The position numbers were made by a program, and so were the translations under genes. A stretch of 64,000 nucleotides of DNA from Octopus vulgaris (Eukaryota): assembly GCA_951406725.2 (NCBI GenBank), contig OX597818.1, positions 141,980,001 to 142,044,000 on the forward strand. Direction: 5' to 3'. Positions 1 through 39,400 of this stretch are shown piece after piece; the stretch's first letter is position 1; each line of letters starts with the position of its first letter. The notes under the pieces are model-generated. The model searched no databases, was not told the DNA's origin, and saw only the letters and a list, made by a program, of their open reading frames with translations.

Positions 1-3000
1 GGGTTGGAAATTGTGGAAGGAATATTGAACATTCCTGAGAGGGGGATTAGAAGGTGAATGTGAGGAAGCGGCGGAAGGAATATTGAACATTCCAGAGAGG
101 GGGATTTGAAGGTGAAGGGGAGGAAGGGGATGAAGGAATATTGAACATTCCTGAGAGGGGGATTTGAAGGTGAATGGGAGGAAGGGGCGGAAGGAATATT
201 GAACATTCCAGAGAGGGGGATTTGAAGGTGAAGGGGAGGAAGCGGATGAAGGAATATTGAACATTCCTGAGAGGGGGATTTCAAGGTGAAGAGGAGGAAG
301 GGGATGAAGGAATATTGAACATTCCAGAGAGGGGGATTTGAAGGTGAAGGGGAGGAAGGGGATGAAGGAATATAGAACATTCCAGAGAGGGGGATTTGAA
401 GGTGAAGGGGAAGAAGGGGATGACGGAATATTAAACATTCCAGAGAGGGGGGTTTATGGTGAAGGGGAGGAAGGGGCGGAAGGAATATTGAACATTCCAG
501 TGAGGGGGATTTGAAGGTGAAGGGGAGGAAGGGGCGGGAGGAATATTGAACATTCCAGAGAGGGGGATTTGAAGGTGAAGGGGAGGAAGGGGATGACGGA
601 ATATTGAACATTCCAGAGAGGGGGGTTTTAAGGTGAAGGGGAGGAAGGGGCGGAAGGAATATTGAACATTCCAGAGAGGGGGATTTGAAGGTGAAGGGGA
701 GGAAGGGGCGGAAGGAATATTGAACATTCCAGAGAGGGGGATTTGAAGGTGAAGGGGAGGAAGGGAATGAAGGAATATTGAACATTCCAGAGGGGGAGAT
801 TTGAAGGTGAAGGGGAGGATGGGGATGACGGAATATTGAACATTCCAGGGAGGGGGATTTTAAGGTGAAGGGGAGGAAGGGGCGGAAGGAGTATTGAACA
901 TTCCAGAGAGGGGGATTTGAAGGTGAAGGGTTGGAAATTGAGGAAGGAATATTGAACATTCCTGAGAGGGGGATTTGAAGGTGAATGTGAGGAAGGGGCG
1001 GAAGGAATATTGAACATTCCAGAGAGGGGGATTTGAAGGTGAAGGGGAGGAAGGGGATGAAGGAATATTGAACATTCCTGAGAGGGGGATTTGAAGGTGA
1101 ATGGGAGGAAGGGGCGGAAGGAATATTGAACATTCCAGAGAGGGGGATTTGAAGGAGAAGGGGAGGAAGGGGATGAAGGAATATTGAACATTCCAGAGAG
1201 GGGGATTTGAAGGTGAAGGGGAGGAAGGGGATGAAGGAATATTGAAAATTCCTGAGAGGGGGATTTGAAGGCGAAGGGGAGGAAGGGGATGACGGAATAT
1301 TGAACATTCCAGAGAGGGGGATTTGAAAGTTAAGGGTAGGAAGGGGATGAAGGAATATTAAACATTCCAGAGAGGGGGATTTGAAGGTGAAGGGGAGGAA
1401 GGGGATGACGGAATATTGAACATTCCAGAGAGGGGGATTTTAAGGTGAAGGGGAGGAAGGGGCGGAAGGAGTATTGAACATTCCAGAGAGGGGGATTTGA
1501 AGGTGAAGTGGAGGAAGGGGATGAATGAATATTGAACATTCCAGAGAGGGGGATTTGAAGGAGAAGTGGAGGAAGGGGATGAAGGAATATTGGTCATTCC
1601 AGAGAGGGGGATTTGAAGGTGAAGGAGAGGAAGGGGATGAAGGAATATTGAACATTCCAGAGAGGGGGATTTGAAGGTGAAGGGGAGGAAGGGGATGACG
1701 GAATATTGAACATTCCAGAGAGGGGGATTTGAAGGTGAAGGGGAGGAAGGGGATGAAGGAATATTAAACATTCCAGAGAGGGGGATTTGAAGGTGAAGGG
1801 GAGAAAGGGGATGAAGGAATATTGAACATTCCAGAGAGGGGGGATTTGAAGGTGAAGGGGAGGAAGGGGATGAAGGAATATTAAACATTCCAGAGAGGGG
1901 GATTTGAAGGTGAAGGGGAGGAAGGGGATGAAGGAATATTGAACATTCCAGAGAGGGGGGTTTTAAGGTGAAGGGGAGGAAGGGGCGGAAGGAATATTGA
2001 ACATTCCAGAAAGGGGGATTTGAAGGTGAAGGGGAGGAAGGGGCGGGAGGAATATTGAACATTCCAGAGAGGGGGATTTGAAGGTGAAGGGGAGGAAGGG
2101 GATGAAGGAATATTGAACATTCCAGAGAGGGGGATTTGAAGGTGAAGGGGAGGAAGGGGATGAAGGAATATTGAACATTCCAGAGGGGGATTTGAAGGTG
2201 AAGGGGAGGAAGGGGATGAAGGAATATTGAACATTCCAGAGAGGGGGATTTGAAGGTGAAGGGGAGGAAGGGGATGAAGGAATATTGAACATTCCAGAGA
2301 GGGGGATTTGAAGGTGAAGGGGAGGAAGGGGAGGAAGGAATATTGAACATTCCAGAGTGGGGGATTTGAAGGTGAAGGGGAGGAAGGGGATGAAGGAATA
2401 TTAAACATTCCAGAGAGGGGGATTTGAAGGTGAAGGGGAGGAAGGGGATGACGGAATATTGAACATTCCAGGGAGGGGGATTTTAAGGTGAAGGGGAGGA
2501 AGGGGCGGAAGGAGTATTGAACATTCCAGAGAGAGGGGGATTTGAAGGTGAAGGGGAGGAAGGGGCTGGAGGAATATTGAACATTCCAGAGAGGGGGATT
2601 TGAAGGTGAAGGGGAGGAAGGGGATGAAGGAATATTGAACATTCCAGAGAGGGGATTTTAAGGTGAAGGGGAGGAAGGGGCGGAAGGAGTATTGAAGATT
2701 CCAGAGAGGGGGATTTGAAGGTGAAGGGGAGGAAGGGGATGAATGAATATTGAACATTCCAGAGAGGGGGATTTGAAGGTGAAGGGTTGGAAATTGAGGA
2801 AGGAATATTGAACATTCCTGAGAGGGGGATTTGAAGGTGAATGTGAGGAAGGGGCGGAAGGAATATTGAACATTCCAGAGAGGGGGATTTGAAGGTGAAG
2901 GGGAGGAAGGGGATGAAGGAATATTGAACATTCCTGAGAGGGGGATTTGAAGGTGAATGGGAGGAAGGGGCGGAAGGAATATTGAACATTCCAGAGAGGG

Positions 3001-3698
3001 GGATTTGAAGGAGACGTGGAGGAAGGGGATGAAGGAATATTGAACATTCCAGAGAGGGGGATTTGAAGGTGAAGGAGAGGAAGGGGATGAAGGAATATTG
3101 AACATTCCAGAGAGGGGGATTTGAAGGTGAAGGGGAGGAAGGGATGAAGGAATATTAAAAATTCCTGAGAGGGGGATTTGAAGGTGAAGGGGAGGAAGGG
3201 GATGACGGAATATTGAACATTCCAGGGAGGGGGATTTTAAGGTGAAGGGGAGGAAGGGGCGGAAGGAATATTGAACATTCCAGAGAGGGGATTTGAAGGT
3301 GAAGGGGAGGAAGGGGCGGAAGGAATATTGAACATTCCAGAGAGGGGGATTTGAAGGTGAAGGGGAGGAAGGGGATGACGGAATATTGAACATTCCAGAG
3401 AGGGGGGTTTTAAGGTGAAGGGGAGGAAGGGGCGGAAGGAGTATTGAAGATTCCAGAGAGGGGGATTTGAAGGTGAATGGGAGGAAGGGGATGAATGAAT
3501 ATTGAACATTCCAGAGAGGGGGATTTGAAGGTGAAGGGGAGGAAGGGGATGAAGGAATATTGAACATTCCAGAGAGGGGGATTTTAAGGTGAAGGGGAGG
3601 AAGGGGCGGAAGGAATATTGAACATTCCAGAGAGGGGGATTTGAAGGTGAAGGGGTGGAAAGGAGGAAGGAATATTGAACATTCCAGAGAGGGGGATT
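1..3698. repeat. 58-bp tandem satellite, ~64 copies, purine-rich + strand; continues off the left edge
   Basis: Unit GAACATTCCAGAGAGGGGGATTTGAAGGTGAAGGGGAGGAAGGGGATGAAGGAATATT recurs every 58 nt (GAAC at 27, 85...). It accounts for all MFNIPSSPSSPSPSNPPLWNV ORFs. Confidence 0.97.
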
Positions 3699-3700
3699 CC

Positions 3701-6700
3701 AAAGAGGAACGCCAACAGAGATGAAAGGGGAGTACCGACAGAGATCAAAGAGAAGTACCGACAGAGATCAAAGAGGAATGCCGACAGAGATCAAAGGAGA
3801 GTTCTGACAGAGATCAAAGAGGAATGCCGACAGAAATCAAAGGGGAGTACAGACAGAGATCAAAGAGGAATGCCGACAGAGTTCAGAGGGGACTACCGAC
3901 AGAGATCAAAGAGGAATGCCGTCAGAGATCAAAGAGGAGTACCGAAAGATATCAAAGACAAATGCCGTCAAAAATCAAAGTGGAATGCCGACAGAGATCA
4001 AAGAGGAGTACCGACAGAGATCAAAGGGGAGTACCGTCAAAGATCAAAGAGTAATGCCGACAGAGACCAAAGAGGAATGCCGACAGAGATCAAAGGAGAG
4101 TTCCGACAGAGATCAAAGAGGATTCCGACAGAGATCAAAGGGGAGTACCGACAGAGATCAAAGAGGAGTGTCGACAGAGATCAAAGACAAATGCCCTCAA
4201 AGATCAAAGAGGAATACCGAGAGAGATCAAAGAGGAATGCCGACAGAGATCAAAGGGGAGTACCGACAGAGATCAAAGACGAATGCCAACAGAGATCAAA
4301 TGGGGGTACCGGCAAAGATCAAAGAGTAATGCCGACAGAGATCAAAGAGGAGTACCGAGAGAGATCAAAGCGGAATCCCGACAGAGATCAAAGGGGAGTA
4401 CCGACAGAGATCAAAGAGGAATGCCGTCAGAGATCAAAGAGGAGTACCGAGAGAGATCAAATAGAATGCCGACAGAGATCAAATAGGAGTACCGACAGAG
4501 ATCAAAGAGGAATGCCGTCAGAGATCAGAGAGGAATGCCGACAGAGATCAAAGGGATTACCGACAGAGATCAAAGAGGAATGCCAACAGAGATCAAAGGG
4601 GAGTACCGACAGAGATCAAAGTACCGAGAGAGATCAAAGGTGGGTACCGACAGAGATCAAAGGGGAGTACCGACAGATAACAAAGACAAATGCCGTCAAA
4701 GATCAAAGAGTAATGCCGACAGAGACCAAATAGGAATGCCGACAGTGATCAAAGAGGAATGCCGACAGAGATCAAAGGGGAGTGTCGACAGAGATCAAGG
4801 CGGTGCACCGACAGAGATCAAAGAGGAGTACCGACAGAGATCAAAGAGGAGTGTCGACAGAGATCAAATAGGAGCACCGACAGAGATCAAAGAGGATTAC
4901 CGAGAGAGATCAAAGGGGAGTACTGACAGAGATCAAATAGGAGTACCGACAGAGATCAAAGAGGAATGCCGACAGAGATCAAAGAGGAGTACCCACAGAT
5001 ATCAAAGACAAATGCCGTCAAAGATCAAAGAGGAATGCCGACAGAGATCAAAGGGGAGTACTGACAGAGATCAAAGAGGAGTGTCGTCAGAGATCAAAGA
5101 GGAATACCGATAGAGATCAAAGCGGAGTACCGACAGAGATCAAATAGGAATGCCGACAGAGATCAAAGAGGAATGCCGACATAGACCAAAGAGGAGTAGC
5201 GACAGATATCAAAGACAAATGCCGTCAAAGATCAAAGAGGAGTACCGACAGAGATCAAAGAGGAATGCCGACAGAGATCAAAGGGGAGTACCGACAGAGA
5301 TCAAAGACAAATGCCGTCAGAGATCAAGGAAGAGTACCGAGAGAGATCAAAGGGGAGTACCGACAGAGATCAAAGAGGAGTACCGAGAGAGATCAGAGGG
5401 GAGTACCGACATAGATCTATTAGGAGTACCGACAGAGATCATAGATGAATGACGACAGAGATCAAAGGGGAGTGCCGACAGATATCAAACACAAATGCCG
5501 TCAAAGATCAAAGATCTGTCGGCACTCCCCTTTGATCTCTGACGGCATTCCTCTTTGATCTCTGTCGGTACTCCTATTTGATCTCTGTCGGTACTCCCCT
5601 TTGATCTCTCTCGATACTCCTCTTTGATCTCTGTCGGTACTCCCCTTTGATCTCTCTCGGTTCTCCCCTTTGATCTCTGTTGGCATTCCTCTTTGATCTC
5701 TGTCGGTACTCCTCTTTGATCTCTGTCGGTACTCCTCTTTGATCTCTGTCGGTATTCCCCTTTGATCAAAGAGGAATGCCGTCAGAGATCAAAGGGGAGT
5801 GCCGACAGATATGAAAGACAAATGCCGTCAAAGATCAAAGAGTAATGCCGACAGAGACCAAAGAGGAATGCCGACAGAGATCAAATGGGAATACCGACAG
5901 TGATCAAAGAGGAATGCCGGCAGAGATCAAAGGGGGTACCGACAGAGATCAAAGAGTAATGCCGACAGTGATCAAAGAGGAGTACCGACAGAGATCAAAG
6001 AGGAATGCCGACAGAGATCAAAGGGGAGTAACCGACAGAGATCAAAGAGGAATCCCGTCAGAGATCAAAGAAGGGTACCGACAGAGATCAAAGAGGAATG
6101 CCGACAGATATCAAAGGGGAGTACCGACAGAGATCAAAAGGACTACCGAGAGATATCAGAGGGGATACCGACAGAGATCTAATAGGAGTACCGACAGAGA
6201 TCATAGAGGAATGCCGACAGAGATCAAAGGGGAGTGCCGACAGATATCAATGACAAATGCCGTCAAAGATCAAAGAGGAATGCCGACAGAGATCAAAGAG
6301 GAATGCCGACAGAGATCAAAGGGGAGTACCGACAGAGATCAAATAGGAATGCCGACAGAGATCAAAGAGGAATGCCGACATAGATCAAAGAGGAGTACCG
6401 ACAGATATCAAAGAGGAATGCCGACAGAGATCAAAGGGGGGTACCGACAGAGATCAAAGAGGAATGCCGGCATTCTCTTTGATCTCTGTCGGTTCTCCTC
6501 TTTGATTTCTGTCGGAATTCTTCCTTGTTCTCTTTCGGTGCTCCACTTTGATCTCTGTCGGTACTCCTCTTTGATCTCTGTCGGAACTCCCCCTTTGATC
6601 TGTCGGTATTCCTCTTTGATCTGTGACGACATTCCTCTTTGATCTCTGTTGGTACTCCTATTTGATCTCTGTCAGCATTCTCTATGATCTTTGTAGGTAC

Positions 6701-6866
6701 TCCTCTTTGATCACTGTCGACATTCCACTTTGATCTCTGTCGGTACTCATCTTTGATCTCTGTCGGTATTCCTCTTCGATCTCTGTCGGCATCCCTCTTT
6801 GGTCACTGTCGGCATTTCTCTTTGATCTCTGTCGGAACTCCCCTTTGATCTGTCGGCCTTCCGACA
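3701..6866. repeat. 23-bp tandem satellite with internal inversions
   Basis: Unit GAGATCAAAGAGGAATGCCGACA and variants. Forward 3701-5513, reverse 5514-5765, forward 5766-6468, reverse 6469-6860. Confidence 0.95.
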
Positions 6867-21256: not shown

Positions 21257-22510
21257 CAGGGTGGGGCAGAGAGGACCGACGTTTTTGAAAAATTCACAAA
21301 ATCATTAATTTTAGCTGCAAACAAATTTTATTGACAACAATGTGTTCGTATTGAATTAGCATTTGTCAAAATCAAGTGCGGAAAGCAGCATCCATCATAT
21401 GGTATCCGTTTTCAATGGTGCATTTCTGAAGACGTTCTTAGAAGTTAGCATCCACTCTCTCCAGCAATGCTCTGTCGATTTGGACGACTTCCACACGAAT
21501 AGCTTCCTTCAATGTACAGAGTTTATGCGCATATAGACGTACCTTGAGGTTTACCCACAAGAAATAATCACACATAGACAAATCAGGGAACCGAGGGGGC
21601 CAAGGAATATCAGAAAACCTGGAAATGAGGCAGTCACCGAAGAGAGAGCTGAGAACGTCTATTGATGCTCTGGCTGTGTGGGCCGTCACTCCATTTTGCT
21701 GAAACCACACACATCGAATAGGCATACGTTTTCGTCGTAATTCAGACACAAAGAAGTTCTTTATCATCTCGATGTAACGCTTGGAGTTCACAGTGACAGC
21801 ATTTCCATTACTGTCCTCAAAGGAGTAAGGACCAATGACTGCAACTTTCCCAACAGCACACCAGACCGTCACTTAGGCTGTGCAGTGGTCTTTCGTGCAG
21901 TTCTCTCGGATTTTCAAGAGCCCAGTAATGACAGTTCTGTCGATTCACCATGCCATTCAGATGAAAATGAGCTTCATCATTCATTAATAAAACGAAGTTG
22001 TCATTCGCCTAAAAAACTGCTTCCATCTGAAGTGCGAAGTCAAGCCGCTCTGTATAGTCCCATGGTTTCAACGGTTGCCCGGTGACCATTTTGTACAGAT
22101 GGAAATGCAGGTCTTCATGCAAAATACGCCTTGCAGTATCAAAGATTGTCTGACGCCTTCCACATTTCCGGGGTCCGTACCGTTCCTGGCGCCCCCACCG
22201 ATCTCCTATTCATTAGTGTACCTCGTGTACGAAGTGCATTCACCCAACGTAAGATTGTGTTACGGGTGGGAACAGCCTGGTTTCGGGGAATGTTGAAGTG
22301 ACGCCGAAACTCACGCTTAACTGCTGTGATAGACTCGTTATTCTTCGTGTAACTGTCATAGGCAAACATGCGATGCTCAATCGCCCATAGAGCCATAGGT
22401 TCACCTGAAAAGTAAAAAAAATGCTAAGACACCTCGGTTCGAACGGTACCTGACAGACATATGTCTCTAAGTAATAACCATTTCAAAAACGTCCGTCTTC
22501 TCTGCCCCAC
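21257..22510 (-). mobile_element. Tc1/mariner DD41D (rosa/Visitor-type) transposon with decayed transposase
   Basis: TA plus TIR CAGGGTGGGGCAGAGAGGACCGACGTTTTTGAAA, mirrored at 22481-22510. HTH ORF 22139-22396; DEAHFHLNGMVNRQN; WFQQ(N)G followed by 41 aa to the D of WPPRFPDLSMCD. Confidence 0.9.
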
Positions 22511-22555
22511 ATACATACATACATACATACATACATACATACATACATACATACA

Positions 22556-22586
<31 letters not shown>

Positions 22587-22632
22587 GCATACATACATAT
22601 GAATAAATGAAAGAATGGAGTTGAACGACACA

Positions 22633-22750
22633 TTAACAAATTTCCTTTATTTTCGACATATGTTTCGAAGGCTGCATATTCCTTATTGTGAAGGAATAAG
22701 GAGTACATTATGCCGCTTTCTCATCAGGAAAAACAAGGAATTTATGTCAA
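22633..22750 (-). ncRNA. Canonical-core type I hammerhead ribozyme (family H3 element ~22600-22955)
   Basis: Minus: TTTTC-CTGATGA(22727-22721)-GAAAGCGGCATA..TCCTTATT(loop)AATAAGGA..TATGCAGCCTTC-GAAAC-ATAT-GT-C/GAAAA. GUC site between 22655 and 22654; stem I extends further (TTCC/GGAA, TTGAC/GTTAA). Confidence 0.85.
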
Positions 22751-22955
22751 CATCAAGGTTCACAAAAACTTTTAGATGACTGCTCTCACGGAGCGCATAA
22801 ATTTTATAAAAATACACACAAATTTCCACACGAAAACACGTAGTCTCTGCCCTAGGCACGTAACTTCAACCGTGTTATTTCTGATGTAAATTTGCTACCC
22901 AGGTATCGGTTAAACGAATTATCCATAAAAAGATATTTCATTTTTCTGCTCAAAT

Positions 22956-23006
<51 letters not shown>

Positions 23007-27396: not shown

Positions 27397-27602
27397 GACC
27401 GCGTGTGTACCGTTGGCGATTTTTTTTCCTCCGTCTTCCCTTCTTTGGATCTTTCCTTTTCCTATGTTTCTGACGAAGAGCTCCGCTCGAAACGTTAAAC
27501 CCTCCTTCTTTCCTTCTTTCCTGAGCGTCCAATAATACTATACTTGTTCCACGTCCTCGGGTTGTTGTGTTTTCTATTTGTGTTTTCATGTTTGGATTAA
27601 CT
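27397..27602 (+). mobile_element. Short Penelope-like element, family H1
   Basis: ~205 bp; end-to-end paralogue at 39205-39400 (minus); lies between (CA)n and (TA)n. Confidence 0.7.
27466..27500 (+). ncRNA. Minimal type I hammerhead ribozyme
   Basis: GTTT-CTGACGA-A-GAGC(TCC)GCTC-GAAA-CG-T-T/AAAC: full CUGANGA/GAAA core, stem I GTTT/AAAC, palindromic ACGT stem III, GUU site after 27496. Confidence 0.8.
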
Positions 27603-39204: not shown

Positions 39205-39400
39205 AAGTTAATCCAAACATGAAAGCACAAAAAAAAACACAACAACGCGAGGACGTGGAACAAAGTATTATTGGACGCTCAGGAAAGAAGGAGCGTTTAA
39301 CATTTCGAGCGGAGCTCTTCATCAGAAACATAGGAGAAGGAAAGATCCAGAGAAGGGAAGACAGGGGGGAAAAAAATCGCCAATGGTACACACACGGTCA
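39205..39400 (-). mobile_element. Family H1 element with hammerhead at 39295-39329
   Basis: Minus: GTTT-CTGATGA-A-GAGC(TCC)GCTC-GAAA-TG-T-T/AAAC. Confidence 0.75.

What the first reader, a model, noticed from the sequence alone, without database searches (positions are those of the whole stretch)
22633..22750. Canonical-core GUC hammerhead with an unusually long stem II
The minus strand has a perfect CUGAUGA / GAAAC / GUC core, a palindromic stem III (ACAUAUGU), a 12-bp stem II with 2 mismatches capped by a second 8-bp hairpin, and a long interrupted stem I. It is the best candidate in the window for an active ribozyme, and differs from the usual minimal PLE hammerhead.
Basis: partly seen in the sequence, partly recalled or inferred. 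Interest (0 to 1): 0.72.

Follow-up and report, generated by a model that had tools for sequence, protein, structure and literature searches.

The report
Long-armed hammerhead of octopus Penelope retrotransposon
This is an intact hammerhead (self-cutting RNA) motif at the end of a 355-base stub of a Penelope-type jumping gene in what is likely an octopus genome; its 54-base second arm is conserved by paired mutations across thousands of related copies, and it is predicted to cut only when two copies pair up.

Summary
It is no lone ribozyme. It sits in a 355-bp head-to-head stub (22597-22950), flanked by (TA)n and (ATAC)n, of a Hydra-clade Penelope-like retrotransposon; longer copies lead into a GIY-YIG endonuclease and reverse transcriptase. 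Exact patterns find over 8,000 long-armed hammerheads genome-wide. Helix II is 53-59 nt in 13 subfamily representatives, with two-sided changes in 7 of 12 proximal pairs; published Hydra hammerheads have 12-26 nt, but a 54-nt arm is already listed for spike-moss PLE-X1_sMoe. The centre of loop III runs UA, UG, CG along a well-supported tree and avoids CA (182 vs 2,341-3,242 matches), as expected if it pairs between two copies. Monomer stem III probability is 0.03. This promoterless copy is probably silent; cleavage and transcription are unshown. The scan noted long-armed octopus Hydra hammerheads before on other DNA. Side result: this lineage lacks the CxCX5C linker yet still targets (TA)n. 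New variant of a known kind.

The parts
22597..22799 (-). 5'-truncated sense arm of the pseudo-LTR, carrying the hammerhead; ends 58 nt after the cut site
   Evidence: 98% identical to L073:5854-6056, which lies downstream of the endonuclease
22796..22950 (+). Inverted 5'-truncated arm: the ~150-nt extension that follows the hammerhead in full elements and leads to the ORF start; 4-bp overlap with the other arm
   Evidence: 96% to L073 from 6052; colinear with the hammerhead arm in L031, L072, L073; runs into the ORF start in L070 and L129
22721..22727 (-). Catalytic core CUGAUGA (C3-A9)
   Evidence: sequence
22667..22720 (-). 54-nt helix II: 12-bp proximal stem with 2 mismatches, 6x1 internal loop, 8-bp apical hairpin
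   Evidence: covariation
22655..22666 (-). GAAAC, palindromic stem III/loop (22663-22656) and GUC; predicted cut after 22655
   Evidence: loop-state counts
22728..22753 (-). Helix I, 5' strand (interrupted)
22630..22654 (-). Helix I, 3' strand (interrupted)
22954..23004 (.). (TA)n array at the end of the inverted arm (insertion target type)
   Evidence: most of the 30 best copies are flanked by (TA)n
22509..22599 (.). (ACAT)n array at the end of the hammerhead arm

Best explanation
This is the pseudo-LTR hammerhead of a Hydra-type Penelope-like retrotransposon, left as a 355-bp head-to-head stub in a TA repeat; its 54-nt second helix is a structure conserved across the lineage, and it likely cuts after C22655 only when two copies pair through the 8-nt palindrome, probably helped by the element's own protein. 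Shown: the parent element, the two-arm anatomy, the copy number, compensatory changes in helix II, and the restriction of the loop III centre to self-pairing states. Inferred: in tandem elements (3.6-kb unit in L129) one transcript carries two hammerheads, or two RNAs meet; loop III pairs across them into an 8-bp helix, completes the core and cuts the precursor 60-210 nt upstream of the two sites where reverse transcription appears to start. The long arm likely stabilises an AU-rich junction and offers a handle for the RT-endonuclease. This particular copy has no promoter and no tandem partner, so it is most likely a silent fossil that could cut only if read through on the minus strand and paired in trans.
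For: Parent: copies extend upstream into a GIY-YIG domain (PF01541, E=1.5e-4, 22.4 bits vs cut-off 22.6) and an RT with YRDD. Hydra motifs RW, DKT and YRDD in 12 of 12 long frames; CxxC..E in 10 and CxHW in 7 of them (definition). Copy number: 3,242 exact matches with 0 controls, 2,341, 2,643. Helix II is 53-59 nt in all 23 matches printed (14 loci). On 13 subfamily representatives the proximal 12 pairs are 88.5% paired, 7 with two-sided changes; whole structure 84% paired vs 34-47% when slid, 0 of 500 shuffles as high (similar on 32 copies). Dimer: monomer stem III p=0.03, palindrome duplex -7.0 kcal/mol; loop centre TA 3,242+, TG 2,643, CG 2,341, CA 182; order UA (L122), UG (L126, L130), CG (L127, L123, L129) on branches with support 97-100. 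Two 3' ends: 55 of 117 tails stop 40-69 nt and 37 stop 180-219 nt after the cut site, like the two RT start sites of the anole element (PMC11167929), whose hammerhead cleaves only with protein. The two arms share only a 10-bp palindrome, so this copy is not masked by an antisense arm.
Against: No cleavage or transcription was shown. The hammerhead fold is 2.9-10.8 kcal/mol above the free ensemble in all 32 copies tested, and RNAalifold prefers a swapped fold. The apical hairpin is weaker: 72.7% paired, 2 of 10 pairs two-sided. Pairs with two-sided change overall were matched by 30 of 500 shuffles, and shuffles ignore relatedness. The loop III path rests on 2-3 independent changes, and copy counts reflect amplification, not events; purine-first and YY centres were not counted. 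The protein-handle role has no direct evidence. In the anole element the cut is dispensable for insertion in vitro. The CxCX5C linker of Hydra elements is absent.
Confidence: 0.72

Rival explanations
1. The motif is kept as a structure but no longer cuts: core and long arm serve only as a recognition element for the RT-endonuclease near the reverse-transcription start sites.
For: In the anole PLE, catalytic mutants do not impair insertion and no RNA reads end at the cut site (PMC11167929). The hammerhead fold is never the predicted minimum here.
Against: The core letters, A15.1-U16.1, C15.2-G16.2 and a cleavable H17 (C or A) are kept in 13 of 13 representatives, and loop III stays self-complementary, which matters for catalysis.
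Confidence: 0.15
2. It works as a monomer: the long helices I and II dock through tertiary contacts and stabilise the 2-bp stem III enough for cutting.
For: Both helices are long and conserved; most copies inspected are solitary or inverted, not tandem. Fungal PLE hammerheads cleave as monomers (PMC4209133).
Against: Those monomeric motifs have a large helix III; here it is 2 bp with p=0.03. A monomer gives no reason for the loop centre to avoid CA.
Confidence: 0.08
3. The long arm is part of a switch: helix I and helix II strands swap partners into an off fold that sequesters the core until protein or a partner RNA flips it.
For: The swapped fold is the minimum-energy fold of the window copy and the RNAalifold consensus; its first helix is 90.8% paired in 13 representatives.
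Against: 106 of 500 shuffles are as well paired and a slid control reaches the same covariation score; both helices begin with similar U-rich and A-rich runs, which alone produces the alternative. Compatible with the best explanation as an add-on.
Confidence: 0.12
4. This copy has been co-opted by the host to cut a transcript at this locus.
For: Core intact and not masked by an antisense arm.
Against: 98% identical to other young copies, so no sign of locus-specific selection; no host exon was recognised among the window's open frames.
Confidence: 0.03

Closest known systems
Hydra clade of Penelope-like elements and their hammerheads (Craig et al. 2021, PMC8557442; includes Hydra-1_Obim from an octopus)
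   Same: Single ORF with RT and C-terminal GIY-YIG, RW and DKT motifs, CxxC and CxH around the conserved E and N, (TA)n targets, inverted 5'-truncated copies, 3' type I hammerhead with short palindromic stem III.
   Different: Helix II 53-59 nt vs 12-26 nt in the 26 Hydra rows of File S2 (hand count); ORF 775-900 aa with an Asn/Ser-rich linker and no CxCX5C; unit 3.6 kb vs under 3 kb; tail about 150 nt vs 30-40 bp described for PLEs. Hydra-1_Obim is a different family (23-nt helix II, has the linker motif).
PLE-X1_sMoe and PLE-X1_sTam hammerheads of spike mosses (same File S2, marked as deviating)
   Same: 54 and 48 nt between the core boxes (hand count): a direct precedent for a long helix II in a PLE hammerhead.
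   Different: Endonuclease-less, 28S rDNA-targeting plant elements outside the Hydra clade; single rows, no covariation in what I read.
Minimal and small-palindrome PLE hammerheads (Cervera and De la Pena 2014, PMC4209133)
   Same: Type I, in pLTRs, G10.1-C11.1, palindromic stem III, predicted dimers, mostly solitary truncated copies.
   Different: Helix II 7-8 bp at most in those motifs, helix I short, usually a bulged base before helix II; none of that here.
Poseidon PAc of the green anole (Frangieh et al. 2024, PMC11167929)
   Same: Hammerhead at the pLTR-ORF junction followed by two 3' end positions; AT-rich targets.
   Different: Different clade; its hammerhead overlaps the start codon and the two starts bound a short tail; here the hammerhead lies about 250 nt upstream of the start codon.
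Non-LTR retrozymes (PMC7229834 listing only; bioRxiv 10.64898/2026.07.22.740005 part 1)
   Same: Short non-coding type I hammerhead repeats derived from PLE pLTRs.
   Different: Retrozymes are head-to-tail tandem monomers; this is a head-to-head pair of truncated arms with coding parents.

Membership tests
Type I hammerhead ribozyme | Core CUGANGA, GAAA and NUH around a three-way junction, open at helix I | tested here: met
Type I hammerhead ribozyme | Match to an Rfam hammerhead model | tested here: not met
   no hammerhead hit at E<=10 in 22605-22950; likely because of the long helix II (inference)
Type I hammerhead ribozyme | Site-specific self-cleavage | not testable with these tools
   needs an in vitro assay or raw RNA reads
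Penelope-like element | Single ORF with RT and GIY-YIG endonuclease linked to this repeat | tested here: met
   the Pfam GIY-YIG score is just under its cut-off and full-length frames matched no relevant Pfam family
Penelope-like element | Pseudo-LTR, tandem and inverted 5'-truncated arrangements, optional tail | tested here: met
   tandem L129, inverted pairs L031-L037, two 3' ends
Hydra clade | RWK motif and DKT in place of DKG | tested here: met
   RW(L) and DKT in 12 of 12 frames; strict RWK is not met, but only 10 of 37 full-length relatives have it
Hydra clade | No CCHH in the endonuclease; CxxC and CxH flanking the conserved E and N | tested here: met
   CxxC..E in 10 and CxHW in 7 of 12 frames, the rest cut short or changed; absence of CCHH judged by eye against the alignment
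Hydra clade | CxCX5C linker before the endonuclease | tested here: not met
   0 of 12 frames from 10 loci; a CxCXnC motif in 33 of 37 full-length relatives
Hydra clade | Insertion into (TA)n | tested here: met
   flanks; 102 of 117 tails reach a TA-type repeat within 330 nt
Hydra clade | Phylogenetic placement with named Hydra proteins | not tested
   named references were seen only in a paper supplement and compared by eye; the tree uses unnamed relatives
Neptune clade | CX2-5CxxC linker and CCHH endonuclease | tested here: not met
   my first recalled label; neither motif is present and RT motifs 4-5 follow the Hydra rows
Non-LTR retrozyme | Head-to-tail tandem non-coding monomers each with a hammerhead | tested here: not met
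   single head-to-head stub; no tandem array over the motif

The most novel reading that the evidence does not exclude
An octopus lineage of Hydra-type retrotransposons has rebuilt its RNA-protein interface: it lost the zinc-finger linker thought to guide (TA)n targeting, kept the targeting, and carries a conserved 55-nt hammerhead arm and a 150-nt tail that act as a protein-gated switch licensing dimer cleavage. More than 8,000 such ribozymes, invisible to Rfam, could pair in trans and cut host transcripts that read through them.
Probability: 0.2. Interest if true: 0.72.

Novelty: new variant of a known kind. Interest (0 to 1): 0.42.

Why it matters
What PLE hammerheads do is still open. This lineage is young and partly intact (20 frames of 899 codons without stops among 140 scored matches), and offers a natural series of compensatory changes, including a UA-UG-CG walk in loop III that makes the dimer model directly testable with matched and mismatched partners. 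It shows that standard searches miss thousands of hammerheads when helix II is long. The loss of the CxCX5C linker with (TA)n targeting retained is a counter-example to the proposed link between that motif and microsatellite targeting. The window copy itself is an ordinary stub.

Tried and rejected
Rfam: the whole-window scan listed 150 of 239 matches, all microRNA models, mostly over simple repeats; the local scan gave no hammerhead. Neptune assignment: recalled, then rejected on motifs. Expression: no RNA holder listed; four runs guessed to be RNA hold contigs over the element, but contigs show neither ends, strand nor level, so no inference is drawn. Pfam and PDB sequence searches on the RT part gave nothing relevant. 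The swapped off fold was not supported beyond composition. Antisense masking, common in inverted copies, does not apply here. No intact ORF was seen for the window's own subfamily: L072 and L070 are broken and matches at 85-88% have frames of at most 555 codons (only 140 of 5,916 candidates scored). Lunse et al. 2016 (PMC5785218) is not held, so whether it lists long helix II variants is unchecked. A host gene around the insertion was not identified; neighbouring sequence was not examined. Look-ups of earlier findings by place and by sequence returned nothing.

Full report
Observation. The minus strand carries CUGAUGA at 22727-22721, GAAAC at 22666-22662 and GUC at 22657-22655. The 54 nt between the boxes fold as 12 bp with two mismatches, a 6x1 internal loop and an 8-bp hairpin; helix I is 5 + 6 + about 9 bp with interruptions. 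A descriptor needing the core, 5 bp of helix I and 3 bp of helix II hits once in the window and in 0 of 200 resamples. Rfam gives no hammerhead at E<=10. The perfect cap owes one pair to A22684, found in 2 of 90 distinct copies.

What it sits in. The genome is 2.8 Gb in 227 contigs; the only named protein relative is from Argonauta hians, so an octopus is inferred. The motif lies in a 355-bp repeat between (ACAT)n and (TA)n arrays; the search scored 40 of 3,692 candidates and gave 49 matches. The repeat is two 5'-truncated arms joined head to head with a 4-bp overlap: 22597-22799 on the minus strand (98% to L073) and 22796-22950 on the plus strand (96%). In longer copies the two arms are colinear, hammerhead first. 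Upstream they continue through about 520 nt of 3' UTR into a GIY-YIG domain and an RT; downstream the extension runs into the start of the next ORF. L129 holds two identical 899-codon frames 3.6 kb apart. This is the pseudo-LTR, tandem and inverted layout described for Penelope-like elements (PMC8557442, passages).

Clade. I first recalled Neptune; earlier notes of this scan said Hydra, and I tested that. Against section 11 of PMC8557442: RW and DKT in 12 of 12 frames, CxxC..E in 10, CxHW in 7, (TA)n targets, and RT motifs 4-5 like the Hydra rows of the supplement alignment (by eye). One defining feature fails: no CxCX5C linker in 12 of 12 frames from 10 loci, where an Asn/Ser-rich stretch of 55-167 residues stands in complete frames, while 33 of 37 full-length relatives keep a CxCXnC motif. 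I therefore call it Hydra-type, a derived lineage; no tree with named references was built.

The long arm is a lineage trait. Exact patterns give 3,242 matches with loop centre TA and GUC (control 0), 2,341 with CG, 2,643 with TG and 182 with CA; the last three patterns are looser and include other long-armed families. Helix II is 53-59 nt in all matches (L125, 47 nt, carries a deletion). On 13 hand-picked subfamily representatives the proximal 12 pairs are 88.5% paired, with two-sided changes in 7; the whole structure is 84% paired against 34-47% when slid, and no shuffle of 500 reaches it. A 32-copy alignment, chosen from the 90 copies, agrees (83%). The apical hairpin is weaker (72.7%, 2 of 10 two-sided). 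These counts do not correct for relatedness. Contigs from runs labelled as four organisms cover the hammerhead region with the same variant letters, so the lineage is shared among relatives. In File S2 of PMC8557442 the 26 Hydra rows have 12-26 nt between the boxes, but PLE-X1_sMoe has 54 and PLE-X1_sTam 48 (hand counts). A long arm is thus new for Hydra in what I read, not for PLE hammerheads.

Mechanism. Monomer stem III is 2 bp with probability 0.03, and the full fold is 3.5 kcal/mol above the free ensemble (2.9-10.8 in 32 copies). The palindrome forms an 8-bp duplex of -7.0 kcal/mol with a second copy. On the RT tree the loop centre goes UA (L122), UG (L126, L130), CG (L127, L123, L129) along branches with support 97-100: it passes through the wobble state and avoids CA, which is 13-18 times rarer. 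This fits pairing between two copies, though it rests on few events. Dimer action of such motifs is established (PMC4209133 parts 1-2; PMC6765202 and PMC3088659 passages), with low rates in vitro. Of 117 distinct tails, 55 end 40-69 nt and 37 end 180-219 nt after the cut site, 10 elsewhere and 15 reach no repeat within 330 nt. The window's two arms end at these two positions. In the anole element two internal RT start sites make the same signature, the hammerhead needs the protein to cut, and cutting is dispensable in vitro (PMC11167929 parts 1-2). A swapped off fold is predicted but not supported beyond composition.

This copy. It has no promoter region or tandem partner, is 2% from its closest long copy, and unlike many inverted copies is not masked by an antisense arm. 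Its subfamily showed no intact ORF among those scored, whereas a sister lineage has 20 stop-free 899-codon frames among 140 matches. It is most likely a silent recent stub with a chemically competent motif.

Literature limits. Five searches found no paper on long-armed cephalopod hammerheads; the phrase 'long stem II' occurred in none of the 15 papers listed. Lunse et al. 2016 was not available. The giant squid genome paper lists 235 Rfam hammerheads only (passages). Of bioRxiv 10.64898/2026.07.22.740005 I read part 1 of 5; its supplements are closed and could list such motifs. The scan itself has noted long-armed octopus Hydra hammerheads at other loci and genomes.

Verdict. Real, well-formed, explained as a PLE hammerhead; a new variant of a known kind. 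Interest 0.42.

Noticed in passing
window 21257-22510: A DNA transposon remnant with inverted ends and a transposase-like frame at 21441-21872 (-) abuts the (ACAT)n flank; its right end lacks the 4 terminal bases. The Tc1/mariner label is recalled from motifs; Pfam gave no match.
   Followed up: partly
window 27470-27496 (+) and 39299-39325 (-): Two minimal hammerhead motifs (bulged A, 4-bp helix II, no loop III) in a different repeat family.
   Followed up: partly
L122-L131 open frames: The lineage lacks the CxCX5C linker of Hydra elements (0 of 12 frames vs 33 of 37 relatives) yet still inserts in (TA)n.
   Followed up: yes
G000, rows: Several further long-armed hammerhead families with unrelated helix II sequences share the same palindromic stem III.
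   Followed up: no
L123, L129 and 899-codon rows: A very young sister lineage with many intact frames, a CUGAAGA core, GUA cut site and CG loop centre; L129 is a perfect tandem.
   Followed up: partly
window 16-6851: Minisatellite arrays (58-bp unit x64; 23-bp unit x120 followed by an inverted 23-bp array).
   Followed up: no
L037:8678-9901 (+): A stop-free frame of at least 408 codons resembling a thermolysin-type metallopeptidase (HEFAH motif; label recalled) in an animal genome.
   Followed up: no
L005, L018, L032, L100, L122, L125, L126: Some subfamilies carry a short A-rich insertion in the 3' strand of helix I just after the cut site.
   Followed up: no
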